NCBI GenBank assembly: GCA_035275005.1
Contig: DATENQ010000564.1
Span: 1-61,524, forward strand
Source: Pyrinomonadaceae bacterium
GTDB taxonomy: Bacteria; Acidobacteriota; Blastocatellia; Pyrinomonadales; Pyrinomonadaceae
DNA length: 61,524 nt
Reading direction: 5' to 3'
Under the pieces are notes generated by a model. The model ran no database searches. It had not been told where the DNA came from and saw only the letters and a list, made by a program, of their open reading frames with translations. Positions 4,514 to 41,311 of the stretch are shown here, piece after piece. Both the position numbers and the translations under genes were made by a program. Positions within the stretch are counted from its first letter, which is position 1; each line of letters begins with the position of its first letter.

Positions 4514-6847
4514 CTAACGCGACTTGTCCTGACTGCTAAAGCAATCGCCCTCATCCAGCAGGTTCAGCTTCTTTAATTCAGCCCTATAAGTTTGTGTGCA
4601 ACCTGAGGCCGGCCAGTAAACTTCGACTTGCTCTACGCGCGTAGCGTCCATTAATCCAACATGGGCGAGGTATGGTGAGCTGCCGAACCCTGTACCCAAA
4701 TCTATCAGCGCATATCGGACGATCGTCTCTTGCTTATCATTTTTCGCGGTGACTTTGATTCTCGCACCGACGCCGTAATAGTTCGACTTTCTTCCGCGCA
4801 AACGAATCTTCAACCAGCTATTCCCCAGCCGGCTTTCATTAACGAAAAACTGGTTGGGCCATTTGTCGGCGGGCCACATGCCACCGAGACTCGAGTAGAT
4901 GTCTTCATCGCCATCGTTGTCGAAATCAGCGAAGACTATGCCGTGCCCCTTCTGAATCGTGCCGAAACCCTGGAGCATCGAGATGTTGTCCAACTTTTCA
5001 GCGCAACGTGTTGACTCGGTCTTACCGACGTACATCAGGTTCGGCAGAATGAACCAACTCTCAGGCGTGCCTTTGCCAAGGTAAAAGTCCAGACATCCAT
5101 CGTTGTTGATGTCTCCGAACGAGGAACCCATGGTGCTCATCGGCATATCGAAGAGGTCAGTGCGCTCCGTGAACTGTCCTTGTTCTGTCTGAATAAAGAT
5201 GCGGGTCTGACCGGAGCGGTATTCGTCGAGATGTTCGCCGAAGACCGCTTGCTCAACGCTCGTTTTGGCATCCGTGAAACCGGCCCAAAACAGGTCGAGC
5301 CTCCCGTCGTGATTGAAGTCGAGAAATGCCGCCACAAACCCACCCTCATCTCCGCGAATGAGATTGGTTGGCTCGAAGCTTTTGCCTCCGCTGTTCTTCA
5401 GCAACACACTGGTGTTTCTGAGTGGGCTGGAGAGGAAGAGATCTTGATAACCGTCGTTGTTGTAATCGCCGAAAGAGGCCCCGATGAAATAGTTGTCTTC
5501 CACTGTGGCGGTCAGGCCGTATTCTCGTGTTCGATCGACGAAGCGCCCGCCCTCGTTGATGAAGAGCGTCGAGTCCATGCGCGGCTTTGACATGAGGCCA
5601 CGGACGAGTGGCATCTTGAAGCCCCATTGCGCCAGGAAAAGATCGAGATCGCCGTCGTTGTCGACGTCGCTCCAGGCGGCAACCCACGTCGCTGCGATCT
5701 GGTCGTCAGGTTTCGCCGCGAGTAGTCCGGTCTCGGCCGTGACATCCTTGAATGTTCCGTCACCACGGTTGCGGTAGAGCGCGTAGTTGCCGAAAGGACG
5801 TCCGAAGAAAATGTCTACCCAGCCATCGTTATCGTAGTCGGCGGCAGTGATGATAAAAGGTTGTTTGATCCCGCCGAGACCGGCAGCTTCTGTTCGGTCA
5901 ATGAACTTCTGACCACGATCGTTCTTATAGAATTTGACGAGATCGAAGTTTCCGCCGGTCACGATATCTAGATAGCCATCGTGATCGAAATCTTCGACTG
6001 CGACCCCTTTCCCGGCATTGAAAGTGTCGACACCAAACTCATGGGCGCGCTCGGTAAAGGCAAGGTAGGCGTACTCCGCCTCCATCGCTCTCTTCCCCTC
6101 ACCGTAAAACGAATCAATGAATTTCGACTTGATGAGGTACTTCGGTGGGACTTCCTGAGGGAAGCCGCCTATGGTCATGTAGTTGAAATTCAGCAGCCAC
6201 TGGTAGAGGCGATTGTTTCCGTCGTACTTGTCGAGTAACTTCTCGAAAATTTTCGCGGCGGTGTGGGCACTTTCAGCGCGATCGTGAAACCGCACGAGCG
6301 GTATGGCGCACAGTTCTTGAAGATGATCGTCTTTGGCATCATGCGCGGCGTGATTGTCATTACCTGCAGACCTGAGCTGTGACAAGCAGTTGTCCGCCTC
6401 GCCATATCGCATGTAACTGATAGCCAACCAAAGCAACTTCGACTCCGACTCACCGTCTTTCTCGATGTCGCTTTCGATGAGTGAGATCGCCCTCGCAAAG
6501 TCGGCACGGTGATACGCCAATCGTCCGCGCTCGAATTGGTCCATCCTGCCTTCGTCGATATTATCGAAGCTGTAGAAGCCAGTGCTTTTGTCAATCTCGA
6601 GTAACTGCATGTACTCGAGCCAGTACCCGATCAAAAACCAGAGATTTCGGTTTTCTCCAACGGAGGCGTAGCGCATCTGGCGATAAACTCCGGTGGTGAA
6701 ACCTCTATAGCTGTAACGCACGTACACCGCACCAGATAGAAGCGCGAACAACAGTGCGAGCAGGATGTATCGAAGTTGCAGGCGACGTGCGACGCTTGCG
6801 CCGGCATTCCTCACAACCAGTGGAATGGCACGGCTGCTTGTGGACAT
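4514..6847 (-). CDS. CRTAC1-family protein (TM anchor, TPR-like region, FG-GAP/VCBS repeats, UnbV/ASPIC-like C-terminus)
   Basis: TM helix YILLALLFALLSGAVYV. Repeats DFDHDGYLDIV, DYDNDGWVDIFF, DVDNDGDLDLFL, DYNNDGYQDLFL, DFNHDGRLDLFW, DINNDGCLDFYL, DFDNDGDEDIY. C-terminal WLKIRLRGRKSNYYGVGARIKV..VEVYWPASG. RBS GAGGAG. Confidence 0.8.
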   Translation of the reverse strand: MSTSSRAIPLVVRNAGASVARRLQLRYILLALLFALLSGAVYVRYSYRGFTTGVYRQMRYASVGENRNLWFLIGYWLEYMQLLEIDKSTGFYSFDNIDEGRMDQFERGRLAYHRADFARAISLIESDIEKDGESESKLLWLAISYMRYGEADNCLSQLRSAGNDNHAAHDAKDDHLQELCAIPLVRFHDRAESAHTAAKIFEKLLDKYDGNNRLYQWLLNFNYMTIGGFPQEVPPKYLIKSKFIDSFYGEGKRAMEAEYAYLAFTERAHEFGVDTFNAGKGVAVEDFDHDGYLDIVTGGNFDLVKFYKNDRGQKFIDRTEAAGLGGIKQPFIITAADYDNDGWVDIFFGRPFGNYALYRNRGDGTFKDVTAETGLLAAKPDDQIAATWVAAWSDVDNDGDLDLFLAQWGFKMPLVRGLMSKPRMDSTLFINEGGRFVDRTREYGLTATVEDNYFIGASFGDYNNDGYQDLFLSSPLRNTSVLLKNSGGKSFEPTNLIRGDEGGFVAAFLDFNHDGRLDLFWAGFTDAKTSVEQAVFGEHLDEYRSGQTRIFIQTEQGQFTERTDLFDMPMSTMGSSFGDINNDGCLDFYLGKGTPESWFILPNLMYVGKTESTRCAEKLDNISMLQGFGTIQKGHGIVFADFDNDGDEDIYSSLGGMWPADKWPNQFFVNESRLGNSWLKIRLRGRKSNYYGVGARIKVTAKNDKQETIVRYALIDLGTGFGSSPYLAHVGLMDATRVEQVEVYWPASGCTQTYRAELKKLNLLDEGDCFSSQDKSR

Positions 6848-6862
6848 CGTGGCTCTCCTCTA

Positions 6863-8320
6863 CTAACTGGCCGCAGCGAAGGTGGCGTGAAAACCGAGGT
6901 AAATCGGAGTTTTAAGCCGAAGCCGTGCTAAAGGCCCGGCGCTTACATCCGAGGCGTCAAAAATTGCGAAAAAGCTTTCGACCCTGCGCGCGTCGAATAC
7001 CTGGCAGAGGATCGAACCGGCTCTTTCTTGACTGGGATCAGGAATAAAAACCGGTTCGCCGGCGAGGTAATGCCCGGGCGGCGCTTGATAGATATCGCTC
7101 GACGCGTGACCATTCCAGCTTGCATGGACCAGTTGGTCAAAAAATTTGCGGCCGAGTTGTCCGGTGCTGGAAATACCAAGCATCCAGAAGTCTTCATACG
7201 GACGAGCAGCCCGGCGCATGTCGATCGAGGGGAAGTCGGGAGCGAGCCGATAATCAAGCTCTCGCCTCTCGCGCAACTCGCCCGTCGTACAATCGAATAC
7301 GTAGCGCACAGGCTGACCTTCACACACGTCAGTGAACAGATCGGGTAACGTCTGATACTGATCGTAGATAGGCTGTTCGAGCTCCAGCACGTCTATGTTG
7401 AGTAGCTTGTTGGCTTCGAAGCAGTTTATGAAGTGAAGGCAATGCCTGGGGGCGATAGAAACAGACGCGATCGGCGTACCCATTTCGCGCGACACCACCA
7501 GAAGCCTGCTGCCCCGCTCCGGCTGCCACTCGAGAGAGTCCATCAACGTGCGGTCCTCCAGCACGAGCGAGCGCATGTTCAGTAAATAAGGACTGAGGTA
7601 AAAGATCGCGAAGCTTTGACTGAGACCGAAATCGTGCAACGTACACGGATAGTCGAGCCGCAAGCGCCGGCGATAGATGAGTTTTCCCTGCGCGCCGAAG
7701 CGATAGAAGTGTAACAGCGGGTCAGTGGCTGAAAAGGCGACGCCGAAATTGAACATCTCGCCAGTTTCGCGATCGAACTTCGGATGAGCACTGAATGGGC
7801 TAACGTCATTTAGCGCGCCGCTGAAATTGAATTCGCCACGCGTCTCGAGCGTCACTCGATCAAGCTCGTAAGGCAGGCCCTGTTCTCCGAATGCTAATAA
7901 CGAGTCGCGATAAGGATAGATGCTGACGTTAACCGGCGACTCGAGCATGATCTTTCGCTTCAACAGATCGCCGGCGAAGGCAGTCCCGAAAGTGCGAAAG
8001 AGTGGACGGCGGGCCTTCTGTTCCGCCGTGAATTTGCGGCTGTGCACAAAACGGTTGATAAAGCTCACGCGGTCTTCTTCGAACCGCAGGGCGCAAACCA
8101 TCCCGTCTCCATCAAGCCAGTGGCGGTACTGAAGACCCGACAGCTCAAACCGGGCTGGGCCATTTAAATAGTACGTGCCGCGGATGAACGTGGGGACATG
8201 GCCTTCAATCTGATCCACCGTATAAGAAAGTTCACGCGGTTCGAGCGAAAAAGCGTGCTCGATAAGAGGTGCGTAATCCGCTACTTCGTGGTCCAATACT
8301 GTCTGGTCCAATCTAATCAC
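6863..8320 (-). CDS. carotenoid oxygenase (RPE65/CCD/lignostilbene dioxygenase) family protein
   Basis: Family motifs HWLDGDGM, AHPKFD, LHDFGLS, HFINCFE, GFHATF. GTG at 8320 overlaps the upstream stop. TTG at 8311, with GGGAGG 8 nt upstream, is an alternative start. Confidence 0.8.
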   Translation of the reverse strand: MIRLDQTVLDHEVADYAPLIEHAFSLEPRELSYTVDQIEGHVPTFIRGTYYLNGPARFELSGLQYRHWLDGDGMVCALRFEEDRVSFINRFVHSRKFTAEQKARRPLFRTFGTAFAGDLLKRKIMLESPVNVSIYPYRDSLLAFGEQGLPYELDRVTLETRGEFNFSGALNDVSPFSAHPKFDRETGEMFNFGVAFSATDPLLHFYRFGAQGKLIYRRRLRLDYPCTLHDFGLSQSFAIFYLSPYLLNMRSLVLEDRTLMDSLEWQPERGSRLLVVSREMGTPIASVSIAPRHCLHFINCFEANKLLNIDVLELEQPIYDQYQTLPDLFTDVCEGQPVRYVFDCTTGELRERRELDYRLAPDFPSIDMRRAARPYEDFWMLGISSTGQLGRKFFDQLVHASWNGHASSDIYQAPPGHYLAGEPVFIPDPSQERAGSILCQVFDARRVESFFAIFDASDVSAGPLARLRLKTPIYLGFHATFAAAS

Positions 8321-10106
8321 CTCCCTGGCCTAAGACTGCGGCCACTTCTTCGCATGCAGGAACGAACAACGGAGTGCAAGGTGAAGTACGGAAACGATCC
8401 AGCACTGAAGGGTCGAAAGCCCAAACATATCGCTCCGTAGTTTCCGCGTGGACTGCATAACGCTCACACATCCGGCTCTCGTCAAAGTAGAAGTTGTCGA
8501 GATCGATACTCTCAACGAACGAACGGTTGGTGATTACCGAGGCGTCTCCAAGCACGACCGAATGGACATGAGCCACAATAAAGCGGGCCAGCTCCATCAA
8601 GTTTGCGAGTTGTTCGTCGAGTACTTCTCTCGCTTCCTCCACTGTCACACCGACGCGATAAAAAGTGCTCTCGGCAACACGCAAGGCACCGATGTCCATG
8701 AAATCGTTAAAGACGGGGCGCTGCGTTCGAGTGCAATGCTCTTTCTTCCAGTGATAGAAGCCGGTGATGAACTCCTGAAGGTTTCGATTGACCTGGCCCA
8801 GTCGTGAGAACCTGTTAACGAACAAAACAATGAAGCGGCGGTTCGTAAACAGGTCATTGATGAACGGGAAGACGTAGAACGAAAAATAAATTGTCAGCTC
8901 CCACGTGTACTTGAGCGTCATCGCCTCCTGATCGCCAAGCGCGTAGTAACTCACGGCAAAGCTCGGAACGTACGCTTCGTAAAATGATTTCATCAACTGT
9001 TCGTAGAACCGGCACTTTTCGGTGAGCTCGTTCGCATCGTCAGTCAAAATCGCGTCTACGATCAGTGTGTTATAAAGAGAGATCAGGTCGCCCCCGGGAC
9101 TGTAAAGAGGATCGGTGAAGCGGCCGGCCTCGCCCGCCATGGCCCAGCGCGCGGCGCTAATCGTCTGCGCGCAGTCGTGCGAATAATCTTTGAGGGCGCT
9201 GTGGCACAAGACCTTCCTGAAAGGCAGATCGCGCGCGAAGAGTGGAAACTCCGTGCAGACCCAATCGATCAGTTGTGGCAGCGAGGCGATCTGCTCACGG
9301 TCAATGAGCCGGTTGTCATAGACCAGGCCGAGCGACGTTTTGCCTTGCAACGGGATGACCCAGAACCAAAAACCCTCGCCGCAGAAGTGGTTTGTTGCTA
9401 ACCAGAACGGCAAGTGGCCGATAGCCGCGCGATCTTTCTTCAAGCGAATCTCTTTCGGAGACAGATCGGTAAGCTTGTCTAAGTTGACTAGTCCTTCGAC
9501 CCAGAAAAAGTGCGCGCCGTGGTGGATAGGGTTCTGTTTGGCGAGCCCGAGCTTGCGCGCGAGGAATTTTCCACGTCCGGATGTATCTACCACCCAATCG
9601 GCAGTCGCGCTAACTTGATGCTCTCCGACCCGATAACTCAGCGAGTGAGGACCATCGTTTGAGAGTGAAACACTCAGACCGTTTATTCCTGATTGGAAGG
9701 TAAAGCCGGGCTGTTCGAGATTGAGCCGCAGCAACTCCCCTTCGAGTTTGTTCCGATCGAGCTGGTACGTCGCGATATTTGAGAGGTTACGAATGTACGA
9801 TTGGCAATATTCCTCGAAGCGGCTGTTCTCCTTCCCTTCCGTTTTCCAGTAAAAGCGCAGGTTGTACTTCATGAAGTGCTCGCGCAGGAGGTGTTCTTCG
9901 AGATCCAGGACCTTCGAGAAGTAATAGGCGGAGAGCTGTACCGTTGCTTCGCCATACTTCTGCAGGACCATCGGAATTTGGGCACGCTTCTCGAGCAGCA
10001 GAATCGTCTTGTCGGAATTGAGGAGTAGCTGGCGAGCGAGCGAAAGGCCGGCAAGGCCTCCGCCGATTATCACTACGTCGTAACGCTGAGTGGTTTGCGT
10101 TTCCAT
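8313..10106 (-). CDS. flavin-dependent halogenase
   Basis: FAD fold YDVVIIGGGLAGLSLA, Lys-bearing KYGEAT, and GFWFWVIPL. The last is the WxWxIP signature that separates flavin-dependent halogenases from monooxygenases. Confidence 0.7.
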   Translation of the reverse strand: METQTTQRYDVVIIGGGLAGLSLARQLLLNSDKTILLLEKRAQIPMVLQKYGEATVQLSAYYFSKVLDLEEHLLREHFMKYNLRFYWKTEGKENSRFEEYCQSYIRNLSNIATYQLDRNKLEGELLRLNLEQPGFTFQSGINGLSVSLSNDGPHSLSYRVGEHQVSATADWVVDTSGRGKFLARKLGLAKQNPIHHGAHFFWVEGLVNLDKLTDLSPKEIRLKKDRAAIGHLPFWLATNHFCGEGFWFWVIPLQGKTSLGLVYDNRLIDREQIASLPQLIDWVCTEFPLFARDLPFRKVLCHSALKDYSHDCAQTISAARWAMAGEAGRFTDPLYSPGGDLISLYNTLIVDAILTDDANELTEKCRFYEQLMKSFYEAYVPSFAVSYYALGDQEAMTLKYTWELTIYFSFYVFPFINDLFTNRRFIVLFVNRFSRLGQVNRNLQEFITGFYHWKKEHCTRTQRPVFNDFMDIGALRVAESTFYRVGVTVEEAREVLDEQLANLMELARFIVAHVHSVVLGDASVITNRSFVESIDLDNFYFDESRMCERYAVHAETTERYVWAFDPSVLDRFRTSPCTPLFVPACEEVAAVLGQGGD

Positions 10107-10109
10107 TTT

Positions 10110-15485: not shown

Positions 15486-15498
15486 AATGACCTCCGCT

Positions 15499-20161: not shown

Positions 20162-20163
20162 CG

Positions 20164-33402: not shown

Positions 33403-33444
33403 CCGCAGATCATCTCTGTGTAATCTGTGTAATCTGTGGATCAC
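33403..33444. repeat. REP-like imperfect palindrome of the gtaatc(t/c)g(t/c)gg family
   Basis: ccgcagatcatctctgtgtaatctgtgtaatctgtggatcac. Arms are ccgcagat / atctgtgg, with tandem ctgtgtaat units. It encodes the last residues (..PQITQITQR) and the stop of the CRTAC1-3 gene. Confidence 0.6.
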
Positions 33445-34015
33445 CTTCCTCGATGCGCACCTGCCGGCTGCCTTTCATCACGTTTGTAAGCTCCTGCCCT
33501 TCGAGGTGCTGCACGCGTCCACTCGGCCAGCGGATCTCAATCGCGTCGACGTGGTCCGCTTTCCCGAGGCCAAAGTGAAGCGGCAACATCATCTCTGACG
33601 CATAACCTGAGCCTGCTTCGACTTGCCGCATCATCTTTTTCCCTCCAGCCGTGAGCCATACGCAGGCGCCGATCGCATCGCGATTGCTTTCGGTCCCAAC
33701 CAATTTCAACTCAACCGAACTGCCTACTTTCTTCAGATTGTTCATATAAAGCACCGGCGTTTCGTTGTTGGCATTCATGACCAGGTCCAACCGCCCGTCG
33801 TTGTTGAAGTCGGCCACTGCAACACCACGGCCGTCCTTCACACTGTCAGAACCCGTTGGCCGCGCAATATCGATGAACTGCCCATCCCCGACATTCGCAA
33901 AGAGACACTTGTGCTCGTAACCGTTCCAGGAGTTCTCACCAACAAACTCGTGACTGAAGAAGAACCCCTGCTTGTACTTGTCAATGTGCGCGACCGCGCC
34001 CGATGTAAACGGGAG
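33410..34015 (-). CDS. CRTAC1-family protein 3, segment downstream of the in-frame TGA (last FG-GAP repeat + UnbV/ASPIC domain)
   Basis: The frame is open and continuous from 34015. The track ORF 33410..33841 is only its part after the first GTG. LPFTSGAVAHIDKYKQGFFFSHEFVGENSWNGYEH.., DFNNDGRLDLVMNAN, VELKLVGTESNRDAIGACVWLTAGG, SGYASEMMLPLHFGLG. Confidence 0.7.
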   Translation of the reverse strand, partial: LPFTSGAVAHIDKYKQGFFFSHEFVGENSWNGYEHKCLFANVGDGQFIDIARPTGSDSVKDGRGVAVADFNNDGRLDLVMNANNETPVLYMNNLKKVGSSVELKLVGTESNRDAIGACVWLTAGGKKMMRQVEAGSGYASEMMLPLHFGLGKADHVDAIEIRWPSGRVQHLEGQELTNVMKGSRQVRIEEGDPQITQITQR

Positions 34016-34018
34016 TCA
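33985..34018 (-). other. in-frame UGA (34018-34016) plus downstream hairpin GCGC-GGUC-GCGC: candidate SECIS/recoding signal
   Basis: Minus strand reads GAA GAT CTT TGA CTC CCG TTT ACA TCG GGC GCG GTC GCG CAC ATT. The 17 nt GCGCGGTCGCGCACATT sit at the same offset as in the paralog. Confidence 0.45.
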
Positions 34019-35848: not shown

Positions 35849-37389
35849 TACAATTCCAAAAACACGCCGCGGATATTCGCGGACTTCAGCCACGGATTAA
35901 CACTGATACTGTTGCTGAACTCTGACCGCCGGCCGGTTATCTTCCCAGCCACCCGCATCGCAGAAACAATGACCGGCGTGATGCCGCCGCCGGGTTGTGT
36001 CCAATGGCCCACGAAATACAAATTCTTCAACATCCCATTCAGCGCCGGACGGTTGGCGCCAAGTTGATCGGGCGACATCTCCCAGCCAAGCATCGCGCCC
36101 CTGTGGTTCAACGTGAACCGGTGCGACGTCAACGCTGAAGCACTCAGCTTGACGACCACTTTCTCCGTGAAGCCCGGCATCACACGCTCGAGGTTTTTCA
36201 TGATGTAGGCTTCGACTTTCGCTTTGTGCGCGGCCCAGTCGTCGATCGATTCGTAATCAATGTCGGTCAGCTTCTGCACGATAACGATGTGTCCACCCGC
36301 CGGAGCCATCGCCGGTTCGTACAACGTCGGCACAAAGATCTTGAACGAGTTAGTCGCGACTCGATCTGAATCCCATGAATCCCAGTGATAACCATGCGCG
36401 GCGCGCAACACTTCAGTCTCAATTCCCTTCAGACCGACATGGACCAGAAAACACGGATGCGTTGGACGTAACCCACGAATGGAGGCAACTCGATCGCGAT
36501 CGATGTGGTCTCGCTCGATTAACCGGTCGAGTGTCAACAGTAAATCGGCATTCGAAATGACCACGCCGGCACTGACGTGATGCCTCTGCTGAGTGCTTAT
36601 CTCTACGCCACACGCGCTCTTGTTTCTGACGACGATGCGATTGACTTTCGCGCTCGTCAGGATGTGGCCGCCAAGTTCTTCGAAGCGAAGTGCCAGCTCG
36701 TCGGCAAAAGCCTGTGATCCACCACGCGGGTAGTAATTGCCCAGGAAGTAGGAGAGCCTGAGCATGGAATCGAAGACGAATGAAGTGCGGGACGGCGGAG
36801 ATCCCCAGTGGCCGCAATCGGCGGCGAGCAGGAGCTTAAGTTTCGGATCGCGGAAGTGCTGGTCCAGTGCCTCACGCACCGTTGTCTGTGAGTACTGATC
36901 GAGCCGATCTGTTTCGCGCCAGCGGAAGTAGGTGAGCAACCCTGATAAATAGACTTCGCGCACCAGCATGAAAAACTGATCCAGGCTTTCGGCTTCCTGT
37001 GGAAATTCCTGCTTCAGTTTGCTGAGATAAGTATCGAAGTCGGCAGGCACTGCGAACGTGGAACCATCGGGGAAATGAAAATGATCGACCGGATCCATCT
37101 TCACCCACCCGTTAGTTACACCGAGCTCGCGCAACAACTTTCCGGTAATCGTCGCCGGATTCCCAAGCAAGGGGTAAAAGTGCGTTGCAGCGTCGAACGT
37201 AAAGCCTTTGCGCCGGAACGTGCTGCAATAACCACCGACCATGTAGTGCTGTTCGACCAGCAACACCCGCAGTTGTTCACGCGCCAACAGGTTTGCGCAG
37301 ATCAGCCCACCGATGCCGGCGCCGATAATCACGGCATCGTAAGACGCCTCGGGCGAATGGCCGCGCAATCCTTTGAAAAGCCTCTTCAT
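35848..37389 (-). CDS. phytoene-desaturase-family (CrtI/CrtD-like) FAD-dependent oxidoreductase
   Basis: YDAVIIGAGIGGLICANLLAREQLRVLLVEQHYMVGGYCSTF dinucleotide fold. C-terminal LYFVGHWTQPGGGI. ATGA overlap with the upstream gene. Confidence 0.75.
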   Translation of the reverse strand: MKRLFKGLRGHSPEASYDAVIIGAGIGGLICANLLAREQLRVLLVEQHYMVGGYCSTFRRKGFTFDAATHFYPLLGNPATITGKLLRELGVTNGWVKMDPVDHFHFPDGSTFAVPADFDTYLSKLKQEFPQEAESLDQFFMLVREVYLSGLLTYFRWRETDRLDQYSQTTVREALDQHFRDPKLKLLLAADCGHWGSPPSRTSFVFDSMLRLSYFLGNYYPRGGSQAFADELALRFEELGGHILTSAKVNRIVVRNKSACGVEISTQQRHHVSAGVVISNADLLLTLDRLIERDHIDRDRVASIRGLRPTHPCFLVHVGLKGIETEVLRAAHGYHWDSWDSDRVATNSFKIFVPTLYEPAMAPAGGHIVIVQKLTDIDYESIDDWAAHKAKVEAYIMKNLERVMPGFTEKVVVKLSASALTSHRFTLNHRGAMLGWEMSPDQLGANRPALNGMLKNLYFVGHWTQPGGGITPVIVSAMRVAGKITGRRSEFSNSISVNPWLKSANIRGVFLEL

Positions 37390-38597
37390 AACGCGCTCAA
37401 CCCTGGTCTATTCCGGCCATACGTTTCATGTGCAGCCACAAACTCCCCGCTCGCGATCGCCGCACCCATGGAAAGCTCACCCGCGAGCAGTGTGGCGCAA
37501 ATGATTTCGGCGAATTTGCCTGCCTTGCCTTTACCTGCACACCCCAGAATCTCGAGACATTCGCGGCTGGTCCCCAAAGCAGTACCGCCACCCACAGTCG
37601 CGACTGTCAGCGATGGCAGCGTCACACTCGCGTAAAGATCTCCGTTCTGGTCCAACTCGAAATTCGTAACGCCCACTGAAGAATTCACGATATTGGCAAC
37701 GTCCTGGCCGCAGGCAATAAAGATTGCCGCCAGCCCGTTGGCGAATTGGCCGTTGTATCCGATAGCGTTGGCCTGCAAGTGGCCCAGCATCGTGTGTTGT
37801 CGCATCTGCAACAGGTCCTCAGGCGTGACGTGTAGGTACGACTTGACGATGTGTCGCGGCAGCAGCGCGCCTGCTGTCACTTTCTTGCCTTTGCCGCCGG
37901 CGAGCAGCGATCCACTCGCTCGTTTTTCCGAGCTGAAGCCGCTGAAGACGTAGAAGTGAAGAGCGCCGGAATGATCCATGATCCATTTGCACGCCTGCTC
38001 AGTGGCCTTAACGATCATGTTCATCCCCTGCGCATCGCCGGTGAAGTAACAGAAGTTAACGATCACTTCTCTTCCGATCGGGTGACACTCGATCCGCTGT
38101 AGCTTGCCGTGATGCGTGGTGGATTCAGCCTCGGCGCGAATCGAATCGAAACTGTCTGCAAGAGTGATAGCAAACTCATGCGCCCGAGCGACGTTTTCGA
38201 AGAGAAACACTGGGGAGACGCGATTCTCGTCTACGTGAACGCGAGTTGTGACACCGCCTGCGCGCGTCAGTGCGACCATGCCACGCTCATACGAGCGGAC
38301 CAGCGCGCCTTCAGTCGTTGCCAGAGGAACATAAAAAAAGCCCCGCGCATCCGAACCGTTGATCAGCAATGGGCCCGCGACGCCGAGCGGCATTTGGGCT
38401 GTACCAACAGGGTTTTCAATATTGCCGCGCATCTCATCGCCCGGTATCGAATGTGCGCCAACATGGACCAACCGGCAGCCGGTTTTCTGTTCCAGCCATT
38501 GACGCCGCCGTTGGACGTAAGGCTGCGCGTAGCCCTGTTGCTTCATCCGGGGCACCAGGGACAACGCAACCTCACTTATGTTTTGTTCAGTTCTCAT
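37386..38597 (-). CDS. HMG-CoA reductase-family protein
   Basis: ENPVGTAQMPLGVAGPLLING, VPLATTEGALVRSYERG, GDAQGMNM, ATVGGGT, AAHETYGRNR. ATG at 38597 overlaps the upstream TAA (TAATG). No other mevalonate-pathway gene is in the window. Confidence 0.75.
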   Translation of the reverse strand: MRTEQNISEVALSLVPRMKQQGYAQPYVQRRRQWLEQKTGCRLVHVGAHSIPGDEMRGNIENPVGTAQMPLGVAGPLLINGSDARGFFYVPLATTEGALVRSYERGMVALTRAGGVTTRVHVDENRVSPVFLFENVARAHEFAITLADSFDSIRAEAESTTHHGKLQRIECHPIGREVIVNFCYFTGDAQGMNMIVKATEQACKWIMDHSGALHFYVFSGFSSEKRASGSLLAGGKGKKVTAGALLPRHIVKSYLHVTPEDLLQMRQHTMLGHLQANAIGYNGQFANGLAAIFIACGQDVANIVNSSVGVTNFELDQNGDLYASVTLPSLTVATVGGGTALGTSRECLEILGCAGKGKAGKFAEIICATLLAGELSMGAAIASGEFVAAHETYGRNRPGLSAL

Positions 38598-39844
38598 TAC
38601 ACTCTTGCCAGCACGAGCGAACAGCAATGACCGTCAAAACCGACTGAATTAATCAGCGCGGTTTCCAGATCGATTTTCGTGTTGTCAGGACTAATCACGT
38701 CGAATGCGAGGTCGTCATCAACTTGCTCGAGACCGTTGATGCCTGGCAGTACTCCGTCGCGCATCGTTTCCAGCAATGCAATGGCCTGCATTGGACCAGA
38801 AGCACCGAGTGTTTCCCCAAGCATTGACTTGATGGCTGTTACTGGAAGTTTGCGAGTCTGCCCGTTCAGGCCGGCGAAGACACCCTTCGCTTCATGCCGG
38901 TCGCCGGCCTGACTGCCGCTGGCAGACGCACTGATACAGTCGATCTCGTGAGGACCAGTGAAGGCATCGTTGATCGCATGTCGAACCGAAAGGGCGATTG
39001 AATTTATCGCCGACTTCTCGTCCTCGCCCTGCGACCAGTCATAACCGCAGCCGTGACCAGTAATCTCCGCGAGCGGGTGCGCGCCTCTTTCTCGTGCGAA
39101 GTGAGCGTCTTCAAGCATTAACAGAGCGGCGCCTTCACCAAGCGCGAACCCGTTGCGTCTCTTGTCAAATGGAATCGGAAAATCTCCGGCGCTGTGCTCC
39201 GATCGGCACAACAGTCCCGCACGGTCGAAGCCGTAGAACGACTCGAAACACATTTCATCAGCACCGCCGGCGAGGATGGCGCGAGCGCGACCGCTGCGAA
39301 TCACTTCAGTCGCATAAGCAATCGCTTGCAGTCCCGAGGTTATGCCCGTTGAAATGGTCGAATTGATGCCGCGCAGGTTGTGGATGATGGCGGTTTGACC
39401 GGCAGCGGCGTTGATCACCGTGTTGGAAAAGTCCATAGGGCTCGCATAGGCTGGTCCAAATTCAAGCGCGCGGCGGTCAAATTCCGAGATGGTATGCACA
39501 CTACAGAACATCGTCCCGAGCACTAACCCGACTTCTTCCTGATTCAGGATCGAGCCGGACCAGCCGCTATCGTTCAGCGCCAGTTGCGCCGCGGAAGCAA
39601 CGAGTCGTGAGGTGCGGTCCAGCGGGCGCAGGTTTCTCCGGCCGAGATATGTCTTCGCGTCGAAGGAAGAGATCTCTCCGCCCAGCGGACAGCCAAGACC
39701 CGCCGTGCTGAAGAGCTCGACGGGTTTGACTGCACGGCGTCCGGAACAGAGGGAGAGCTGTAAGCTGCTGGAAGAATCGCCCAGCGAAGAGACAACACCC
39801 GCGCCAGTAATGACAACTCTGTTTCTCATCAGTTTAGAGTTCAT
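38597..39844 (-). CDS. beta-ketoacyl synthase-like protein lacking the Cys-His-His triad (chain-length-factor / KS-beta type)
   Basis: Thiolase/KS fold (RVVITGAGVVSSLG, AILAGGADE, GFDGHCCSLVL). The active-site positions read STGITSG (Cys->Ile), SASASGSQAGD (His->Ser) and KSMLGETLGASG (His->Glu). ATG at 39829 is an alternative start. Confidence 0.7.
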   Translation of the reverse strand: MNSKLMRNRVVITGAGVVSSLGDSSSSLQLSLCSGRRAVKPVELFSTAGLGCPLGGEISSFDAKTYLGRRNLRPLDRTSRLVASAAQLALNDSGWSGSILNQEEVGLVLGTMFCSVHTISEFDRRALEFGPAYASPMDFSNTVINAAAGQTAIIHNLRGINSTISTGITSGLQAIAYATEVIRSGRARAILAGGADEMCFESFYGFDRAGLLCRSEHSAGDFPIPFDKRRNGFALGEGAALLMLEDAHFARERGAHPLAEITGHGCGYDWSQGEDEKSAINSIALSVRHAINDAFTGPHEIDCISASASGSQAGDRHEAKGVFAGLNGQTRKLPVTAIKSMLGETLGASGPMQAIALLETMRDGVLPGINGLEQVDDDLAFDVISPDNTKIDLETALINSVGFDGHCCSLVLARV

Positions 39845-41060
39845 ACTTTCTGAGAATCAGCGAAGCGTTGTTGCCGCCAAACGCGTAAGCATTGTTCATG
39901 GCAACGCGTACCGTGTGCTCGCGCGCGTGGTTGGCAACGTAGTCCAGATCACACTCAGGATCCGGCTCTTTCAAATTTATTGTCGGGGGAATGCGATCGT
40001 GATAAATCGCAAGTGCGCAAGCGGCAGCTTCGATTGCCGACGCCGCACCCATCGTGTGACCGAGCATGGATTTGATCGAACTGATGGGTACGCGGTAAGC
40101 CACATCGCCAAACAGTTGTTTGACGGCTAACGTTTCCAGGCGATCGTTTGTCGGCGTTCCGGTGCCGTGCGCACTGATGTAACCGACCTCTTCCCGATCG
40201 GTTCCACTCTGTTCGAGGGCCTGCTTCATGGCGCGCATGGCCCCTTCGCCGTTTGGGTGTGCGGCTGTCATGTGATGTGCATCGCACGACAAGCCATAAC
40301 CGGCAATCTCCGCGTAAATTCGCGCGCCACGTCGCGTCGCGGAAGACAGCGGCTCGAGCACAAGCACGCCTGCGCCTTCGCCCGGAATCATTCCCTTCCG
40401 GTATCGATCGAATGGCTGGCAGACTTCGGGCGCGATCGCTCCCAGTTGAGCGAACCCCGTGTAGGTGATACGAGAAAAAGAATCCGAGCCACCCGCCAGC
40501 ATTAGACTGGCACGACCGGCTCGCAACACGTCGAATGCGTGGGCGATTGCGTAATTTCCTGCGGCACAAGCTGTCGGGATCATGATGTTTATGCCGCCGA
40601 ACTGCAGTTCACGCGCGATGTGCGCGGCGATGACGTGGCTCGGATAGAGCGCCAGAAACTCCGGCCCAACGCGCTCCAGATTCTTGCTGACAAACAAGTC
40701 GTCAAAACGTTCTACCTCGCGTGGCTCACCTGAGGTCGTTCCCATTGAAACTCCAGCCCGCTCGAGATCAAGGGAAGCAATTTCCACGTTCGCGTCCGCC
40801 AGCGCTAAACGGGCGGCGGCGATTGCAAATTGCGATGCACGTCCCAGGTGAGCCGCGTCGAGATTCGAAAGGTAATTCTCTGCTTCAAAGTCATGCACTT
40901 CAGCGCCGCGATGAACGCTGTAAGCACTGGTGTCGAAAGACCTGACCGGACCAATTCCGGAGCGACCTTCGAGCAGATTGGTCCAGAAGCGCTCGCGACC
41001 GGTACCGATCGGAGTGACGACACCGATACCTGTAACAACCACGCGAGAGTGTTTCATCAC
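39834..41060 (-). CDS. beta-ketoacyl-ACP synthase II-like (active KS)
   Basis: RVVVTGIGVVTPIG, active-site PTACAAGNYAI, SAHGTGTPTNDRLE, KSMLGHTMGAASA, AFGGNNASLIL. ATGA overlap with the ACP gene. Confidence 0.85.
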   Translation of the reverse strand: MMKHSRVVVTGIGVVTPIGTGRERFWTNLLEGRSGIGPVRSFDTSAYSVHRGAEVHDFEAENYLSNLDAAHLGRASQFAIAAARLALADANVEIASLDLERAGVSMGTTSGEPREVERFDDLFVSKNLERVGPEFLALYPSHVIAAHIARELQFGGINIMIPTACAAGNYAIAHAFDVLRAGRASLMLAGGSDSFSRITYTGFAQLGAIAPEVCQPFDRYRKGMIPGEGAGVLVLEPLSSATRRGARIYAEIAGYGLSCDAHHMTAAHPNGEGAMRAMKQALEQSGTDREEVGYISAHGTGTPTNDRLETLAVKQLFGDVAYRVPISSIKSMLGHTMGAASAIEAAACALAIYHDRIPPTINLKEPDPECDLDYVANHAREHTVRVAMNNAYAFGGNNASLILRKYEL

Positions 41061-41311
41061 GCCACCGCCAACTCGAGGTGTTGCTGGACGACTCTCACCG
41101 TATCGTTCACGGTGCGAATCTCCGACAGAACTTCGTCGGGAATCTTGACTTGAAACTGGTACTCGGCATCCACGGCTATTTCCAAAATGGTGAGCGAGTC
41201 GAGTTGCAGGTCGTCCTTGTACGACGCTGTGTCGGTGATTTCTTCGGGACTCAAGCTGGTGATCGTGGCGATCGACTTTTTGATCCTCGCCCTGATCTCT
41301 TCCGTGCTCAT
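41057..41311 (-). CDS. acyl carrier protein
   Basis: AGGAG lies 7 nt upstream of ATG at 41311. Phosphopantetheine site DLQLDSLTILEI. 84 aa. Confidence 0.85.
   Translation of the reverse strand: MSTEEIRARIKKSIATITSLSPEEITDTASYKDDLQLDSLTILEIAVDAEYQFQVKIPDEVLSEIRTVNDTVRVVQQHLELAVA

What the first reader, a model, noticed from the sequence alone, without database searches (positions are those of the whole stretch)
4514..41311. A ~37-kb co-directional supercluster whose enzyme inventory resembles a lipid-body (plastoglobule-like) proteome: candidate undescribed specialised-lipid system
From the ACP gene (41311) down to the first CRTAC1 gene (4514), about 30 genes run in one direction. Most gaps are under 50 nt and many genes overlap. 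The largest gaps are 133 nt at 22027-22159, 71 nt at 15997-16067 and 63 nt at 14367-14429.

The content falls into three groups:
- Synthesis: ACP, KS/CLF, the HMGR-like reductase, the CrtI-like desaturase and two acyltransferase fusions.
- Tailoring or turnover: the halogenase, dehalogenase-fold domain, GMC-ThDP fusion, carotenoid-type dioxygenase and patatin lipase.
- Putative binding, targeting or regulation: at least four AOC/dirigent-like barrels, the three-gene unknown family, the shared amphipathic module and the ABC1 kinase plus pseudokinase.

Plant plastoglobules are characterised by ABC1 kinases, lipocalin-fold fibrillins, CCD4, acyltransferase/esterase PES enzymes, flavin oxidoreductases and oxylipin enzymes. 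The parallel is suggestive. It does not prove that this cluster builds and services a neutral-lipid or polyene-lipid pool or particle.

A NarL-type two-component pair sits immediately upstream, separated from the cluster by a perfect 22-bp palindrome. Three membrane-anchored CRTAC1 beta-propellers, two of them with internal UGA, are embedded in the operon structure. That is unexpected for extracytoplasmic Ca-binding proteins.
Basis: inference. Interest (0 to 1): 0.75.

Follow-up and report, generated by a model that had tools for sequence, protein, structure and literature searches.

The report
Acidobacterial lipid-type gene cluster with selenoproteins
A 26-gene block in a soil acidobacterium is a real, conserved but uncharacterised pathway for a specialised lipid or polyketide, and two of its membrane-anchored propeller proteins appear to contain selenocysteine, which public annotation has missed.

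Summary
Twenty-six co-directional genes (4514-41311, minus strand) have the stated gaps and domain content.

Synteny shows a modular system rather than a chance juxtaposition:
- The core is ACP, KS, an inactive KS partner (CLF), an HMG-CoA-reductase-like enzyme, a CrtI-like flavoprotein and an acyltransferase. CRTAC1/UnbV propellers and often a halogenase-dioxygenase pair accompany it. The core recurs in about 80 species-level Acidobacteriota genomes.
- The middle block (ABC1 kinases to patatin) is colinear in five lineages. It is nested between the acyltransferases and the halogenase.

The KS and CLF are much closer to PDB 9s5h than to FabF. 9s5h is very probably the anammox "ladderane cluster" heterodimer. 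No radical-SAM or FabZ gene is present, so the product is not a ladderane.

The plastoglobule analogy is weak. ABC1 and a carotenoid-type dioxygenase are present, but no fibrillin was found and the "AOC barrels" were not verifiable.

The strongest new result concerns the two internal UGAs. They sit at one conserved codon in every relative, followed by a co-varying GGUC-loop hairpin. The reading frame downstream is under purifying selection. This indicates selenocysteine. All 120 closest database entries are truncated there.

The parts
41057..41311 (-). Dedicated acyl carrier protein (84 aa). Its ATG at 41311 follows a GGAG ribosome-binding site.
   Evidence: Pfam PP-binding, E 4.7e-11. Sequence read. 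Adjacent to KS in 32 of 44 fully flanked related loci.
39834..41060 (-). Active ketosynthase (KS). The Cys (TACAAG motif) and both His residues are present.
   Evidence: Pfam ketoacyl-synt N and C domains. 55% identical without gaps over 403 aa to PDB 9s5h_B (512 bits); the next hits, ketosynthase 6kxd_A and FabF 1e5m_A, score about 357. Motifs read.
38597..39844 (-). Chain-length-factor-like KS partner. The catalytic Cys is replaced (STGITSG) and both His residues are lost.
   Evidence: Motifs read. Best PDB hit is 9s5h_C at 271 bits, against 192 bits for the best FabF.
37386..38627 (-). Class-I HMG-CoA-reductase-like thioester reductase.
   Evidence: Pfam HMG-CoA_red over its full length, E 7.7e-109. 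NCBIfam TIGR00533 scores 340 bits, below the cutoff of 442. Best PDB hit is 6hr7. Catalytic Glu, Lys, Asp and His align with human HMGR. Relatives occur in 80 loci, nearly all Acidobacteriota.
35848..37389 (-). CrtI / phytoene-desaturase-family FAD enzyme, below the family cutoffs.
   Evidence: Pfam Amino_oxidase. crtI_fam scores 168 bits against a cutoff of 238. Best PDB hit is CrtI 4dgk at 86 bits.
33410..35848 (-). CRTAC1/UnbV-like propeller A, read through the UGA. Architecture: TM anchor, NTF2-like domain, FG-GAP propeller, UnbV_ASPIC domain.
   Evidence: Model of the N-terminal 610 aa has pLDDT 76.6; best structural match is murine CRTAC1 9etn_A, E 2.8e-13. The N-domain matches an NTF2-type binder.
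34016..34018 (-). In-frame UGA of propeller A, the candidate selenocysteine codon (..KEDL-U-LPFTSGAVAH..).
   Evidence: All 120 best database homologues end here.
33988..33999 (-). SECIS-like hairpin GCGC-GGUC-GCGC. Its loop lies 23 nt after the U of the UGA.
30852..33389 (-). CRTAC1/UnbV-like propeller B, read through the UGA. It is 38% identical to A.
31542..31544 (-). In-frame UGA of propeller B (..TQDL-U-LPYILSAVAH..).
31514..31525 (-). SECIS-like hairpin of propeller B, with the same sequence and the same offset as in A.
29040..30815 (-). Acyltransferase fusion 1: an unassigned N-terminal domain plus a PlsC/DAGAT-type domain.
   Evidence: Pfam Acyltransferase and DAGAT. 55% identical to fusion 2.
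27418..29043 (-). Acyltransferase fusion 2: a weak NAD-dependent epimerase-like N-domain plus an acyltransferase domain.
25721..27421 (-). ABC1/UbiB-family kinase with two C-terminal TM helices.
   Evidence: Pfam ABC1, E 3.8e-56. Motifs KFGQ, ASIGQVH, VKVQ, HADLHPAN and DFG are present. TM helices.
25199..25687 (-). Orphan protein u162. Its N-terminal 85 aa are shared with uABH.
   Evidence: blastp E 5.5e-13. No Pfam hit.
24617..25153 (-). TlpA/AhpC-like thiol-disulfide oxidoreductase. Lipoprotein signal peptide and WCQPC motif.
   Evidence: It recurs in the cluster in L001, L017, L019, L023, L074, L087, L090 and L091.
22971..24617 (-). Degenerate ABC1 homologue (pseudokinase) with two C-terminal TM helices.
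   Evidence: Pfam ABC1, E 5.8e-34. All catalytic motifs are absent.
22160..22939 (-). Orphan protein u259.
   Evidence: No family hit. Position conserved in L001, L004 and L087.
20164..22026 (-). Three-part fusion uABH: the shared N-terminal module, a u200-like domain, and a haloalkane dehalogenase (HLD-II) domain.
   Evidence: NF002938 scores 395 bits against a cutoff of 241. Motifs HGNP, HDWG, ME and HFHQEDNP are present. Paralogy.
19559..20161 (-). Orphan protein u200, 60% identical to the middle domain of uABH.
   Evidence: No Pfam or PDB hit.
16068..19544 (-). GMC oxidoreductase fused to a ThDP enzyme of the acetolactate-synthase type (1158 aa).
   Evidence: Only 5 of the 120 listed protein clusters share this architecture, in a database of 5.8 billion proteins.
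15499..15996 (-). Orphan protein u165, a member of the u142/u165 family.
14430..15557 (-). u142-like protein with an inserted DUF1579 domain. The true start is probably near 15485.
   Evidence: Pfam DUF1579, E 4.6e-20. Split similarity to u142.
13938..14366 (-). Orphan protein u142.
12619..13920 (-). Orphan protein u433.
   Evidence: Conserved in five lineages. No Pfam or PDB hit.
11321..12601 (-). Orphan protein u426, with a weakly START-like (helix-grip) predicted fold.
   Evidence: 372 homologues were found; the 120 listed are unnamed or called hypothetical and none has a Pfam domain. Model pLDDT 77. Foldseek best hits are CERT START and PC-TP, probability 0.9-0.98 but TM 0.2-0.39. It sits next to HMGR in L026, L029, L038, L039, L044 and L050.
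10110..11324 (-). Patatin-like lipase.
   Evidence: Pfam Patatin, E 8e-27.
8313..10106 (-). Flavin-dependent halogenase-like enzyme.
   Evidence: Pfam Trp_halogenase. CmlS-type hit. Motifs GGGLAG, K80 and WFWVIP are present.
6863..8320 (-). RPE65 / carotenoid-cleavage-family dioxygenase. It travels with the halogenase.
   Evidence: Pfam RPE65, E 1.2e-99. Best NCBIfam match is lignostilbene dioxygenase. The Hal-CCD pair recurs in L001, L016, L021, L025, L028, L055, L058, L072, L079, L087, L088, L091 and L092; in L005 and L006 the CCD begins at the locus end.
4514..6847 (-). Third CRTAC1-like propeller, without UGA. It is a lineage-specific end of the block.
   Evidence: Present at this position in L087, but not in L001 or L091.
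41366..41428 (-). Conserved promoter-like region upstream of ACP: TCAGGGAATTCCC, then TTCCTTGAGAA, then CCCGATAGAC.
   Evidence: The first and third boxes (TCAGGGA-TTCCC, CC-GATAGAC) are invariant apart from one variable column each, and the middle box is conserved in part, in the window, L007, L008, L009 and L013.
41433..41499 (.). 23-nt perfect inverted repeat with a 21-nt spacer, just after the response-regulator stop codon. A REP-like or terminator-like hairpin.
   Evidence: Not conserved in L007 or L009.
41506..43909 (-). NarL/LuxR-type response regulator plus a multi-TM HisKA_3 histidine kinase.
   Evidence: Adjacent to the cluster in 10 of 44 fully flanked loci and in L090.

Best explanation
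The block is one conserved, modular pathway of Acidobacteriota (here a Pyrinomonadaceae-like soil bacterium). It builds and remodels a dedicated, probably unsaturated and transiently halogenated acyl or alkyl lipid (or lipid-like polyketide) at the cytoplasmic membrane.

**Proposed steps**
1. A private ACP and a KS/CLF heterodimer start and extend a chain. The homologous anammox enzyme has been shown to decarboxylate malonyl-ACP. Here this step is inferred.
2. A class-I HMGR-like enzyme with an intact catalytic tetrad reduces a thioester to an aldehyde or alcohol (inferred).
3. A CrtI-like flavoprotein adds or shifts double bonds (inferred).
4. PlsC/DAGAT-type acyltransferase fusions attach the product to a lipid carrier (inferred).
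5. A flavin halogenase, a haloalkane-dehalogenase fusion and an RPE65-type dioxygenase tailor or cleave the unsaturated chain (inferred).
6. On the outer face of the membrane, two anchored CRTAC1/UnbV-type propellers act on the lipid. Each carries an NTF2-like ligand-binding domain and one selenocysteine. A TlpA-like lipoprotein reductant serves them. The selenocysteine recoding signals are shown; the chemistry is inferred.
7. A nested optional module handles, regulates or turns over the lipid. It holds the ABC1 kinase and pseudokinase, the START-like u426, patatin, the GMC-ThDP fusion and the orphan families.

The neighbouring NarL-type two-component pair probably controls the conserved promoter-like region upstream of ACP.
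For: **Synteny**
- Of 44 HMGR loci with at least 8 kb on both sides, 36 keep KS and CLF, 38 CrtI, 35 an acyltransferase, 29 a CRTAC1 and 23 ABC1.
- The middle block is colinear at 91, 60, 51 and 48% identity of the GMC-ThDP marker. A fifth, more distant lineage keeps it with a different central enzyme.
- A compact 11-gene version exists: ACP-KS-CLF-HMGR-CrtI-CRTAC-CRTAC-AT-TlpA-Hal-CCD.

**Enzymes**
- KS and CLF are closest to 9s5h_B and 9s5h_C. The biochemistry of the anammox heterodimer is in bioRxiv 10.64898/2026.05.19.726425.
- HMGR catalytic residues are conserved.
- Halogenase and HLD motifs are intact.

**Selenocysteine**
- The UGA sits at the same codon in all 23 homologues found in the fetched loci, as in the window's two genes.
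- The hairpin is paired in 22 of 22 sequences. One pair switches C-G (15) to U-A (7) at synonymous third positions.
- Downstream of the UGA the frame stays open for 200-229 codons wherever the locus extends far enough, with dN/dS 0.08-0.29.
- TGA is an ordinary stop for 15 of 45 genes in the window.
- A 36%-identical paralogue in L022 keeps the UGA, followed by a different predicted stem-loop; a GGUC lies in this stretch, but in the fold printed it is within the stem rather than the apical loop.
- All 120 best database homologues stop at the UGA.

**Topology and folds**: N-terminal TM anchors and a lipoprotein signal. Structural match to CRTAC1 and an NTF2-like N-domain.
Against: - No product is known, and every chemical step is inferred from family membership.
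- No KR, DH or ER gene and no transporter lies inside the cluster. Chain length and degree of reduction are therefore open.
- The HMGR-like enzyme could be a true HMG-CoA reductase feeding an isoprenoid route.
- The middle block is missing from many core-containing loci, so it may serve a partly separate role.
- Operon structure is untested. The simple promoter and terminator scans were no better than shuffled sequence.
- No Cys-containing homologue of the selenocysteine site was found; relatives have Glu or Gly. That is unusual for selenoproteins.
- The selenocysteine machinery of the host genome could not be examined.
- The START-like assignment rests on low TM-scores.
Confidence: 0.55

Rival explanations
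1. The cluster builds and services an intracellular neutral-lipid or polyene-lipid particle, analogous to plant plastoglobules. The ABC1 kinases act as regulators, barrel proteins act as fibrillin-like coat or binding proteins, and the amphipathic module targets proteins to the particle surface.
For: - An ABC1 kinase plus pseudokinase, an RPE65-type dioxygenase, DAGAT-like acyltransferases and a patatin lipase are present.
- u162 and uABH share an N-terminal module.
- u426 has a weak lipid-transfer-like fold.
Against: - No fibrillin/PAP or lipocalin family was detected, even at E<=10.
- The barrel folds were not verifiable.
- Both ABC1 proteins carry two C-terminal TM helices, so they are membrane proteins, not particle proteins.
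- Four cluster proteins are predicted to lie outside the cytoplasm.
- The widespread core lacks most of the "plastoglobule-like" genes.
Confidence: 0.1
2. The cluster is a secondary-metabolite gene cluster for a diffusible bioactive compound, not a membrane lipid. The compound would be halogenated and polyene- or enediyne-like. The UnbV-like propellers would process a reactive polyene, as proposed for E4 in enediyne cassettes.
For: - The KS/CLF/ACP set, a flavin halogenase, NTF2/SnoaL-like domains and UnbV-family proteins are typical of polyketide clusters.
- E4 belongs to the conserved enediyne cassette that makes a heptaene (PMC4480864; that E4 is UnbV is recalled).
- An ABC transporter follows the compact cluster in L091.
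Against: - No PKSE, E3, E5 or E10 equivalents were detected.
- Two PlsC-type acyltransferases, a patatin, ABC1 kinases and a START-like protein point to lipid handling.
- The core is vertically widespread across several classes of Acidobacteriota. That pattern suits a physiological lipid better than a strain-specific antibiotic.
Confidence: 0.2
3. The block is a juxtaposition of unrelated operons that happen to share a strand, and the internal UGAs mark decaying pseudogenes or assembly errors.
For: - Nearly the whole window is co-directional, so strand alone proves nothing.
- The middle block is absent from many loci that carry the core.
Against: - Order is conserved at down to 48% protein identity in independent assemblies.
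- The UGA is at the same codon in every homologue, with purifying selection downstream and a co-varying hairpin.
Confidence: 0.03

Closest known systems
Anammox "Cluster I" (KustE3603-3608): amxACP, amxFabZ, amxFabF2/amxFabFmut heterodimer, phytoene-dehydrogenase homologue, B12 radical-SAM enzyme. Also the "ladderane-type" clusters that antiSMASH reports in non-anammox phyla.
   Same: - A private ACP.
- An active KS paired with a triad-less partner.
- A phytoene-desaturase-family flavoprotein in the same cluster.
- The KS is 55% identical to PDB 9s5h_B. The CLF also hits its partner chain best.
- Such clusters are known outside anammox bacteria, with unknown function (PMC2649909; PMC9902471).
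   Different: - No FabZ and no radical-SAM enzyme, so no route to cyclobutane rings.
- Gene order is KS then CLF; in anammox the inactive partner comes first.
- This cluster adds an HMGR-like reductase, acyltransferases, a halogenase-dioxygenase pair, propellers and the 15-gene middle block.
- The ACP is not especially close to the ACP of 9s5i.
- That 9s5h is the anammox heterodimer is my inference, from the chain composition and the preprint. It is not stated in the text I read.
Enediyne PKS cassette (E10/E/E5/E4/E3). E4 is UnbV, the founding member of Pfam family UnbV_ASPIC.
   Same: An UnbV/ASPIC-family protein is conserved beside a synthase that makes an unsaturated chain. Its function is unknown in both systems (PMC4480864). 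Some database homologues of propeller A are even named "enediyne biosynthesis protein (E4)".
   Different: - No iterative type-I PKSE, E3, E5 or E10.
- The propellers here carry a TM anchor, an NTF2-like domain and a selenocysteine.
Bacterial SelB/SECIS-dependent selenoproteins (the E. coli fdhF paradigm)
   Same: An in-frame UGA is followed about 20 nt later by a short G+C-rich stem with a GGUC apical loop. The reading frame continues under selection.
   Different: - The protein family has not been reported as a selenoprotein in the papers I could search.
- Non-Sec relatives have Glu or Gly, not Cys.
- The product is predicted to be extracytoplasmic.
Plant plastoglobule proteome
   Same: ABC1-family kinases, a carotenoid-cleavage-family dioxygenase, DAGAT-like acyltransferases and flavin oxidoreductases are present.
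   Different: No fibrillin, tocopherol cyclase or NDC1-type enzyme. The ABC1 proteins are membrane-anchored. Parts of the system lie outside the cytoplasm. No evidence of a particle.
Aryl-polyene / xanthomonadin-type clusters
   Same: KS/CLF plus ACP, PlsC-type acyltransferases and, in some of those clusters, a halogenase. The products are membrane-bound polyene lipids. This comparison is from memory and was not tested.
   Different: No KR, DH, aromatic-starter enzymes, LolA-like carrier or MMPL exporter was detected in the cluster.

Membership tests
Anammox Cluster-I-type (ladderane-like) FAS II system | An active KS (Cys-His-His) paired with an adjacent homologue that lacks the triad | tested here: met
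   The KS has TACAAG, DAHH and SAHGTG. The partner has STGITSG and no His at either position.
Anammox Cluster-I-type (ladderane-like) FAS II system | KS and partner closer to amxFabF2/amxFabFmut than to housekeeping FabF | tested here: met
   512 bits against about 357 for the next hits (ketosynthase 6kxd_A, FabF 1e5m_A) for the KS, and 271 against 192 bits for the partner, versus 9s5h_B and 9s5h_C. The identity of 9s5h with the preprint's structure is inferred.
Anammox Cluster-I-type (ladderane-like) FAS II system | A phytoene-dehydrogenase-like flavoprotein in the cluster | tested here: met
   Amino_oxidase / crtI_fam hits. Orthology to Kuste3607 was not tested.
Anammox Cluster-I-type (ladderane-like) FAS II system | A dedicated FabZ-type dehydratase and a B12 radical-SAM enzyme | tested here: not met
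   No FabZ/hotdog or Radical_SAM hit in any of the 26 genes.
Plastoglobule-like proteome | ABC1-family kinases | tested here: met
   ABC1a has all motifs; ABC1b is degenerate.
Plastoglobule-like proteome | Fibrillin/PAP structural proteins | tested here: not met
   No such Pfam hit, even at E<=10 for the orphan proteins.
Plastoglobule-like proteome | PES-type hydrolase plus acyltransferase fusion | tested here: inconclusive
   The acyltransferase/DAGAT domain is present. The N-domain gives only a weak epimerase-like hit, not a hydrolase hit.
Plastoglobule-like proteome | Association with a neutral-lipid particle | not testable with these tools
   Needs microscopy or fractionation.
Bacterial selenoprotein (SECIS-dependent) | An in-frame UGA conserved at one codon among homologues, in a genome that otherwise uses UGA as a stop | tested here: met
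   All 23 homologous sites in the fetched loci, plus the window's own two. 120 of 120 database entries are truncated there. TGA ends 15 of 45 genes in the window.
Bacterial selenoprotein (SECIS-dependent) | The frame downstream of the UGA is translated (open and under purifying selection) | tested here: met
   200-229 open codons wherever the locus extends far enough, pN 0.18-0.32 against pS 0.54-0.78, dN/dS 0.08-0.29.
Bacterial selenoprotein (SECIS-dependent) | A stem-loop shortly 3' of the UGA with a G/U-containing apical loop | tested here: met
   A GGUC loop at offset 23. The stem is 100% paired, with a compensatory C-G to U-A change. In L022 the UGA is followed by a different predicted stem-loop; a GGUC lies in that stretch, within the stem of the printed fold rather than its loop. 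No Rfam model matched.
Bacterial selenoprotein (SECIS-dependent) | Cysteine-containing homologues at the Sec position | tested here: not met
   The nearest non-Sec relatives have Glu or Gly. Only a small sample of full-length relatives was read.
Bacterial selenoprotein (SECIS-dependent) | selA, selB, selD and tRNA-Sec in the same genome; selenium in the protein | not testable with these tools
   None lies in the window, and whole genomes could not be scanned. Some Acidobacteriota do have selenoproteins (PMC12013277).
CRTAC1 / ASPIC-UnbV family | FG-GAP/VCBS propeller plus a C-terminal UnbV_ASPIC domain, with a CRTAC1-like fold | tested here: met
   Pfam. Foldseek best hit is 9etn_A, E 2.8e-13. 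phmmer against 9etn gives 8e-20.
Enediyne warhead cassette | PKSE with E3, E5 and E10 next to E4 | tested here: not met
   No type-I PKS or thioesterase domains in the window.
Class-I HMG-CoA reductase | Full-length HMG-CoA_red domain with catalytic Glu, Lys, Asp and His | tested here: met
   Alignments to 6hr7 and 1dq8.
Class-I HMG-CoA reductase | Score above the NCBIfam equivalog cutoff | tested here: not met
   339.9 bits against a cutoff of 441.8. I therefore call it HMGR-like.
Flavin-dependent halogenase | GxGxxG and WxWxIP motifs and the conserved Lys near residue 79 | tested here: met
   GGGLAG, WFWVIP at 247-252, and K80. Family scores are low.
Haloalkane dehalogenase (HLD-II) | Model score above cutoff, plus the catalytic Asp-His-Glu and the halide-binding Asn and Trp | tested here: met
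   395 bits against a cutoff of 241. Motifs HGNP, HDWG, ME and HFHQEDNP. Residue roles are from family knowledge.
   No Pfam or PDB sequence hits. hhalign between the orphan families was not significant. Only u426 was modelled, and it looks START-like.

The most novel reading that the evidence does not exclude
CRTAC1/UnbV-type beta-propellers would be redox enzymes, not inert calcium-binding proteins.

In Acidobacteriota a subfamily uses an extracytoplasmic selenocysteine, with no cysteine counterpart. A TlpA-like lipoprotein would keep it reduced. The enzyme would transform an unsaturated, transiently halogenated lipid made by a ladderane-cluster-like KS/CLF system.

If so, the cluster encodes a so far unknown class of acidobacterial membrane lipid. 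It would also give the first functional handle on three open problems: the role of UnbV/E4 proteins, the "ladderane-type" clusters of non-anammox bacteria, and a natural role for haloalkane dehalogenases.
Probability: 0.3. Interest if true: 0.85.

Novelty: new variant of a known kind. Interest (0 to 1): 0.7.

Why it matters
- Acidobacteriota are among the most abundant soil bacteria, and their lipids serve as environmental proxies. Even so, this widespread cluster has no described product.
- It links four enzyme groups whose natural roles are open questions: the KS/CLF pair of "ladderane-type" clusters outside anammox bacteria, UnbV/CRTAC1 propellers, haloalkane dehalogenases, and non-UbiB ABC1 kinases.
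- All 120 best database homologues of propeller A, together about 350 member sequences, end at the UGA. The same holds for both propellers in the two relatives whose public gene calls were examined. These proteins are most likely selenoproteins.
- If so, this is a selenoprotein family that searches relying on cysteine homologues would miss. It would also extend selenium use to an extracytoplasmic, lipid-associated setting.

Tried and rejected
- **Exact-match lookup** of the window's GMC-ThDP protein found nothing on record.
- **RNA scans.** Rfam at gathering threshold and at E<=10 around the UGAs gave nothing relevant, and no tRNA was found.
- **Orphan proteins.** The eight orphan proteins or domains gave no Pfam hit at E<=10, and none of the seven scanned had an NCBIfam hit. 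Profile searches of u433, u426 and u200 against PDB sequences gave nothing. hhalign between the orphan families found nothing significant, so I could not confirm or reject the AOC/dirigent idea.
The stop codon blocked a direct translation. Only the 610 aa upstream of the UGA could be modelled, so the Sec environment is unknown.
- **ORF picking** in high-GC related loci gave spurious antisense ORFs and was dropped.
- **Promoter and terminator scans** were not above shuffled controls.
- **The 23-nt inverted repeat** was rejected as a cluster-specific operator, because it is repeated elsewhere and not conserved in relatives.
- **Literature searches** for the gene combination, and for selenocysteine with VCBS, FG-GAP or UnbV, found no description.
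- **Ladderane synthesis** was rejected because no radical-SAM or FabZ gene is present.
- **Genome-wide UGA reassignment** was rejected.

Full report
**1. Observation**

The minus strand between 4514 and 41311 carries 26 genes.

Pfam and NCBIfam confirm the inventory:
- ACP, KS and a KS-like partner.
- A class-I HMG-CoA-reductase-like enzyme and a CrtI-family flavoprotein.
- Two CRTAC1-like propellers, each interrupted by one in-frame TGA.
- Two paralogous acyltransferase fusions.
- An ABC1 kinase and a degenerate ABC1 homologue, with a TlpA/AhpC-like lipoprotein between them.
- A fusion ending in a haloalkane dehalogenase domain that scores above its curated cutoff.
- A GMC-ThDP fusion, a DUF1579 protein, a patatin and a flavin halogenase.
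- An RPE65-type dioxygenase and a third CRTAC1-like propeller.

Motif inspection supports several of these calls:
- The KS has its Cys-His-His triad and the partner lacks it.
- ABC1a has all UbiB-family motifs and ABC1b has none.
- The halogenase has the GxGxxG and WxWxIP motifs and Lys80.
- The dehalogenase domain has the HLD-II signature residues.
- The HMGR-like enzyme keeps the catalytic Glu, Lys, Asp and His when aligned to solved HMGRs. It stays below the NCBIfam equivalog cutoff.

Two corrections apply. First, almost the whole window (45 genes, 2560-61436) lies on the same strand, so direction alone does not delimit a unit. Second, the "22-bp palindrome" is a 23-nt perfect inverted repeat with a 21-nt spacer.

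**2. Is it one unit?**

The GMC-ThDP fusion is rare: only five of the 120 listed protein clusters in a database of 5.8 billion proteins share the full architecture. In contigs from all four of the clusters whose surroundings I looked up, the neighbours are colinear with the window. This holds at 91, 60, 51 and 48% identity.

A scan of species-representative genomes with the HMGR-like protein returned 80 loci. Almost all are Acidobacteriota MAGs: Pyrinomonadaceae at 81-89% identity, then Thermoanaerobaculia, Vicinamibacterales and Bryobacterales. A few are Zixibacteria and Latescibacterota.

Among the 44 loci with at least 8 kb on both sides, the counts were:

| Gene | Loci (of 44) |
|---|---|
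| CrtI | 38 |
| KS and CLF | 36 |
| Acyltransferase | 35 |
| ACP | 32 |
| CRTAC1 | 29 |
| ABC1 | 23 |

CRTAC1 genes change position but stay attached. They sit between CrtI and the acyltransferase in Pyrinomonadaceae-like genomes, upstream of ACP in Bryobacterales, and next to patatin elsewhere.

A compact version exists: DUF4440-ACP-KS-CLF-HMGR-CrtI-CRTAC-CRTAC-AT-TlpA-Hal-CCD (L091). A distant lineage keeps AT-ABC1-...-u426-patatin-CRTAC x3-SnoaL-Hal-CCD, with a different central enzyme (L092).

The picture is a widespread core plus an optional block of about 15 genes inserted between the acyltransferases and the halogenase. In no locus examined here was the middle block clearly separate from core genes. 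The 10-kb flank limit prevents a full test of that point.

**3. Closest known relative of the synthase**

The KS is 55% identical, without gaps over 403 residues, to PDB chain 9s5h_B (512 bits; the next hits, ketosynthase 6kxd_A and FabF 1e5m_A, score about 357). The partner hits 9s5h_C best (271 against 192 bits). The sister entry 9s5i also contains an ACP chain.

This composition fits the structures described in a 2026 preprint on the anammox amxFabF2/amxFabFmut heterodimer (bioRxiv 10.64898/2026.05.19.726425). That pair behaves as a KS/chain-length-factor complex that decarboxylates malonyl-ACP and prefers short chains. The equation of 9s5h with that work is my inference.

The anammox "Cluster I" also encodes a private ACP and a phytoene-dehydrogenase homologue. 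It further encodes a FabZ and a B12 radical-SAM enzyme, and both are missing here. The acidobacterial core is therefore a relative of the "ladderane-type" clusters. Those clusters are already known outside anammox bacteria, where their function is unknown (PMC2649909; PMC9902471). The core is not a ladderane pathway.

**4. The internal UGAs**

Both propellers have TGA at the same aligned codon..EDL-*-LPFTSGAVAH.. and ..QDL-*-LPYILSAVAH... The evidence that these are selenocysteine codons is as follows.

- **Conservation.** Every homologue of types A and B in the fetched loci (23 sites) has TGA there. The protein identities range from about 44 to 95%.
- **Hairpin.** Twenty-three nucleotides after the U lies a GGUC loop closed by a 4-bp G+C stem, which resembles the E. 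coli fdhF SECIS apex. The stem is paired in 22 of 22 sequences. One pair switches from C-G (15 sequences) to U-A (7) at two synonymous third positions.
- **Specificity.** A generic search looked for a TGA in an open frame followed by a GGU-loop hairpin, across the window and all loci. It found the 25 propeller sites and only five others.
- **Translation downstream.** The frame stays open for 200-229 codons wherever the locus extends far enough. Synonymous sites are saturated while pN is 0.18-0.32.
- **No code reassignment.** TGA terminates 15 of 45 genes in the window.
- **Deeper conservation.** A 36%-identical paralogue in L022 keeps a TGA at the homologous position. It is followed by a different predicted stem-loop. 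A GGUC lies in that stretch, but in the fold printed it sits in the stem rather than the apical loop.
- **Public annotation.** All 120 best database homologues of propeller A (62-100% identity) are 460-640 aa long and cover at most 75% of the query, consistent with ending at the UGA. They are named hypothetical, VCBS-repeat or "enediyne biosynthesis protein E4". Gene callers split each gene in two.

Together this is strong evidence for selenocysteine insertion.

Several points remain untested. The host's selenocysteine machinery could not be examined. The nearest non-Sec relatives carry Glu or Gly rather than Cys, so the chemistry of the site is unclear. I found no paper that links selenocysteine to this family.

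**5. Topology and folds**

The three propellers have N-terminal TM anchors, and the TlpA-like protein has a lipoprotein signal peptide and a CxxC motif. This suggests an extracytoplasmic redox pair.

A model of the first 610 residues of propeller A (pLDDT 76.6) matches murine CRTAC1 best. It also shows an NTF2-like domain between the anchor and the propeller. Free-standing DUF4440 or SnoaL genes occupy cluster positions in relatives.

Eight proteins or domains have no Pfam match at all. u426 was the only one I could model with a deep alignment (pLDDT 77). It resembles START lipid-transfer domains with high Foldseek probability but low TM-score. The AOC/dirigent assignment of the other orphans remains untested.

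**6. Regulation**

A NarL-type response regulator and a multi-TM histidine kinase sit upstream. They are linked to the cluster in Pyrinomonadaceae-like genomes.

The hairpin after the regulator gene is REP-like. One arm recurs in the pstS-pstC spacer, and the element is absent or different in close relatives.

What is conserved is a promoter-like stretch upstream of ACP: TCAGGGAATTCCC, then TTCCTTGAGAA, then CCCGATAGAC, at 41366-41428. It is a better candidate for the regulator's target.

**7. Interpretation**

The best reading is a dedicated pathway for a specialised unsaturated lipid or lipid-like polyketide. The steps would be as follows.
- Chain building by the ACP and the KS/CLF pair.
- Thioester reduction by the HMGR-like enzyme.
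- Desaturation by the CrtI-like flavoprotein.
- Acyl transfer by the two fusions.
- Halogenation and dehalogenation.
- Oxidative cleavage by the dioxygenase.
- Extracytoplasmic processing by the selenoprotein propellers.
- Lipid handling and regulation by the nested optional module.

Only three things are shown here: the gene linkage, the integrity of catalytic motifs, and the recoding signals. All chemistry is inferred.

The plastoglobule analogy captures the lipid flavour but fails on its defining structural proteins and on topology. CRTAC1-type proteins inside a biosynthetic operon have a precedent in the enediyne cassette gene E4 (PMC4480864; that E4 is UnbV is recalled).

**8. Novelty and verdict**

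The synthase core belongs to a known but uncharacterised kind, the ladderane-type FAS II clusters. The full gene set is a new variant of that kind. So is the combination of a halogenase with a dehalogenase fusion. The selenoprotein propellers appear to be undescribed.

Interest is fairly high but has limits. All carriers seen among the genome-scan hits are uncultured, and no product is known.

Noticed in passing
window 406-486, 41433-41499, 49097-49232, 51142-51230; arm copy at 60321-60342: Several long, near-perfect inverted repeats lie in intergenic spacers. Two of them have the same 21-nt spacer. The arm GCAAAAAGGCACAAAAGGCACA recurs between pstS and pstC. They look like a REP-like or terminator hairpin family. 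L008 has a related but different element at the equivalent place.
   Followed up: partly
window 55099-61436: A complete phosphate-regulon block (pstS, pstC, pstA, pstB, phoU, phoB-like regulator, phoR-like kinase) lies 14 kb upstream on the same strand. Any link between phosphate limitation and this lipid cluster is speculative.
   Followed up: no
window 43878-45444: A second secreted AhpC/TlpA-like protein and an unknown 331-aa protein sit just upstream of the histidine kinase. Both recur next to the cluster in L008, and in inverted orientation in L080; the 331-aa protein alone recurs, inverted, in L027. They may therefore belong to the system.
   Followed up: partly
L022:14364-17687: A divergent CRTAC1-like paralogue, 36% identical over the site, also has an in-frame TGA at the homologous codon (16596). 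A strong hairpin of different sequence follows; a GGUC lies in it, within the stem of the predicted fold. The frame is open for 744 codons upstream and 363 downstream.
   Followed up: partly
window 14430-15557: The DUF1579 protein looks like a u142/u165-type domain split by insertion of the DUF1579 domain. Its residues 31-113 and 306-345 match u142 residues 9-90 and 93-132.
   Followed up: partly
window 16068-19544: The GMC oxidoreductase half is most similar to multi-domain GMC proteins of insects and other animals (35-41% identity), outside the few bacterial fusions. In the distant lineage L092 a PF04199 "cyclase" fusion lies between the ABC1 genes and u426, and no GMC-ThDP fusion was seen in the stretch examined.
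   Followed up: no
L090 and L091 (gene calls): Public gene callers split each Sec-propeller into two ORFs: 617+215, 585+210, 604+157 and 603+212 aa. Protein databases therefore hold many artificial fragments of this family.
   Followed up: yes
window 45562-49005: A large CarboxypepD_reg plus OMP_b-brl_4 outer-membrane protein, typical of Acidobacteriota, lies upstream. A similar gene lies at the upstream end of L090, three genes before the DUF4440-ACP start of the cluster.
   Followed up: no
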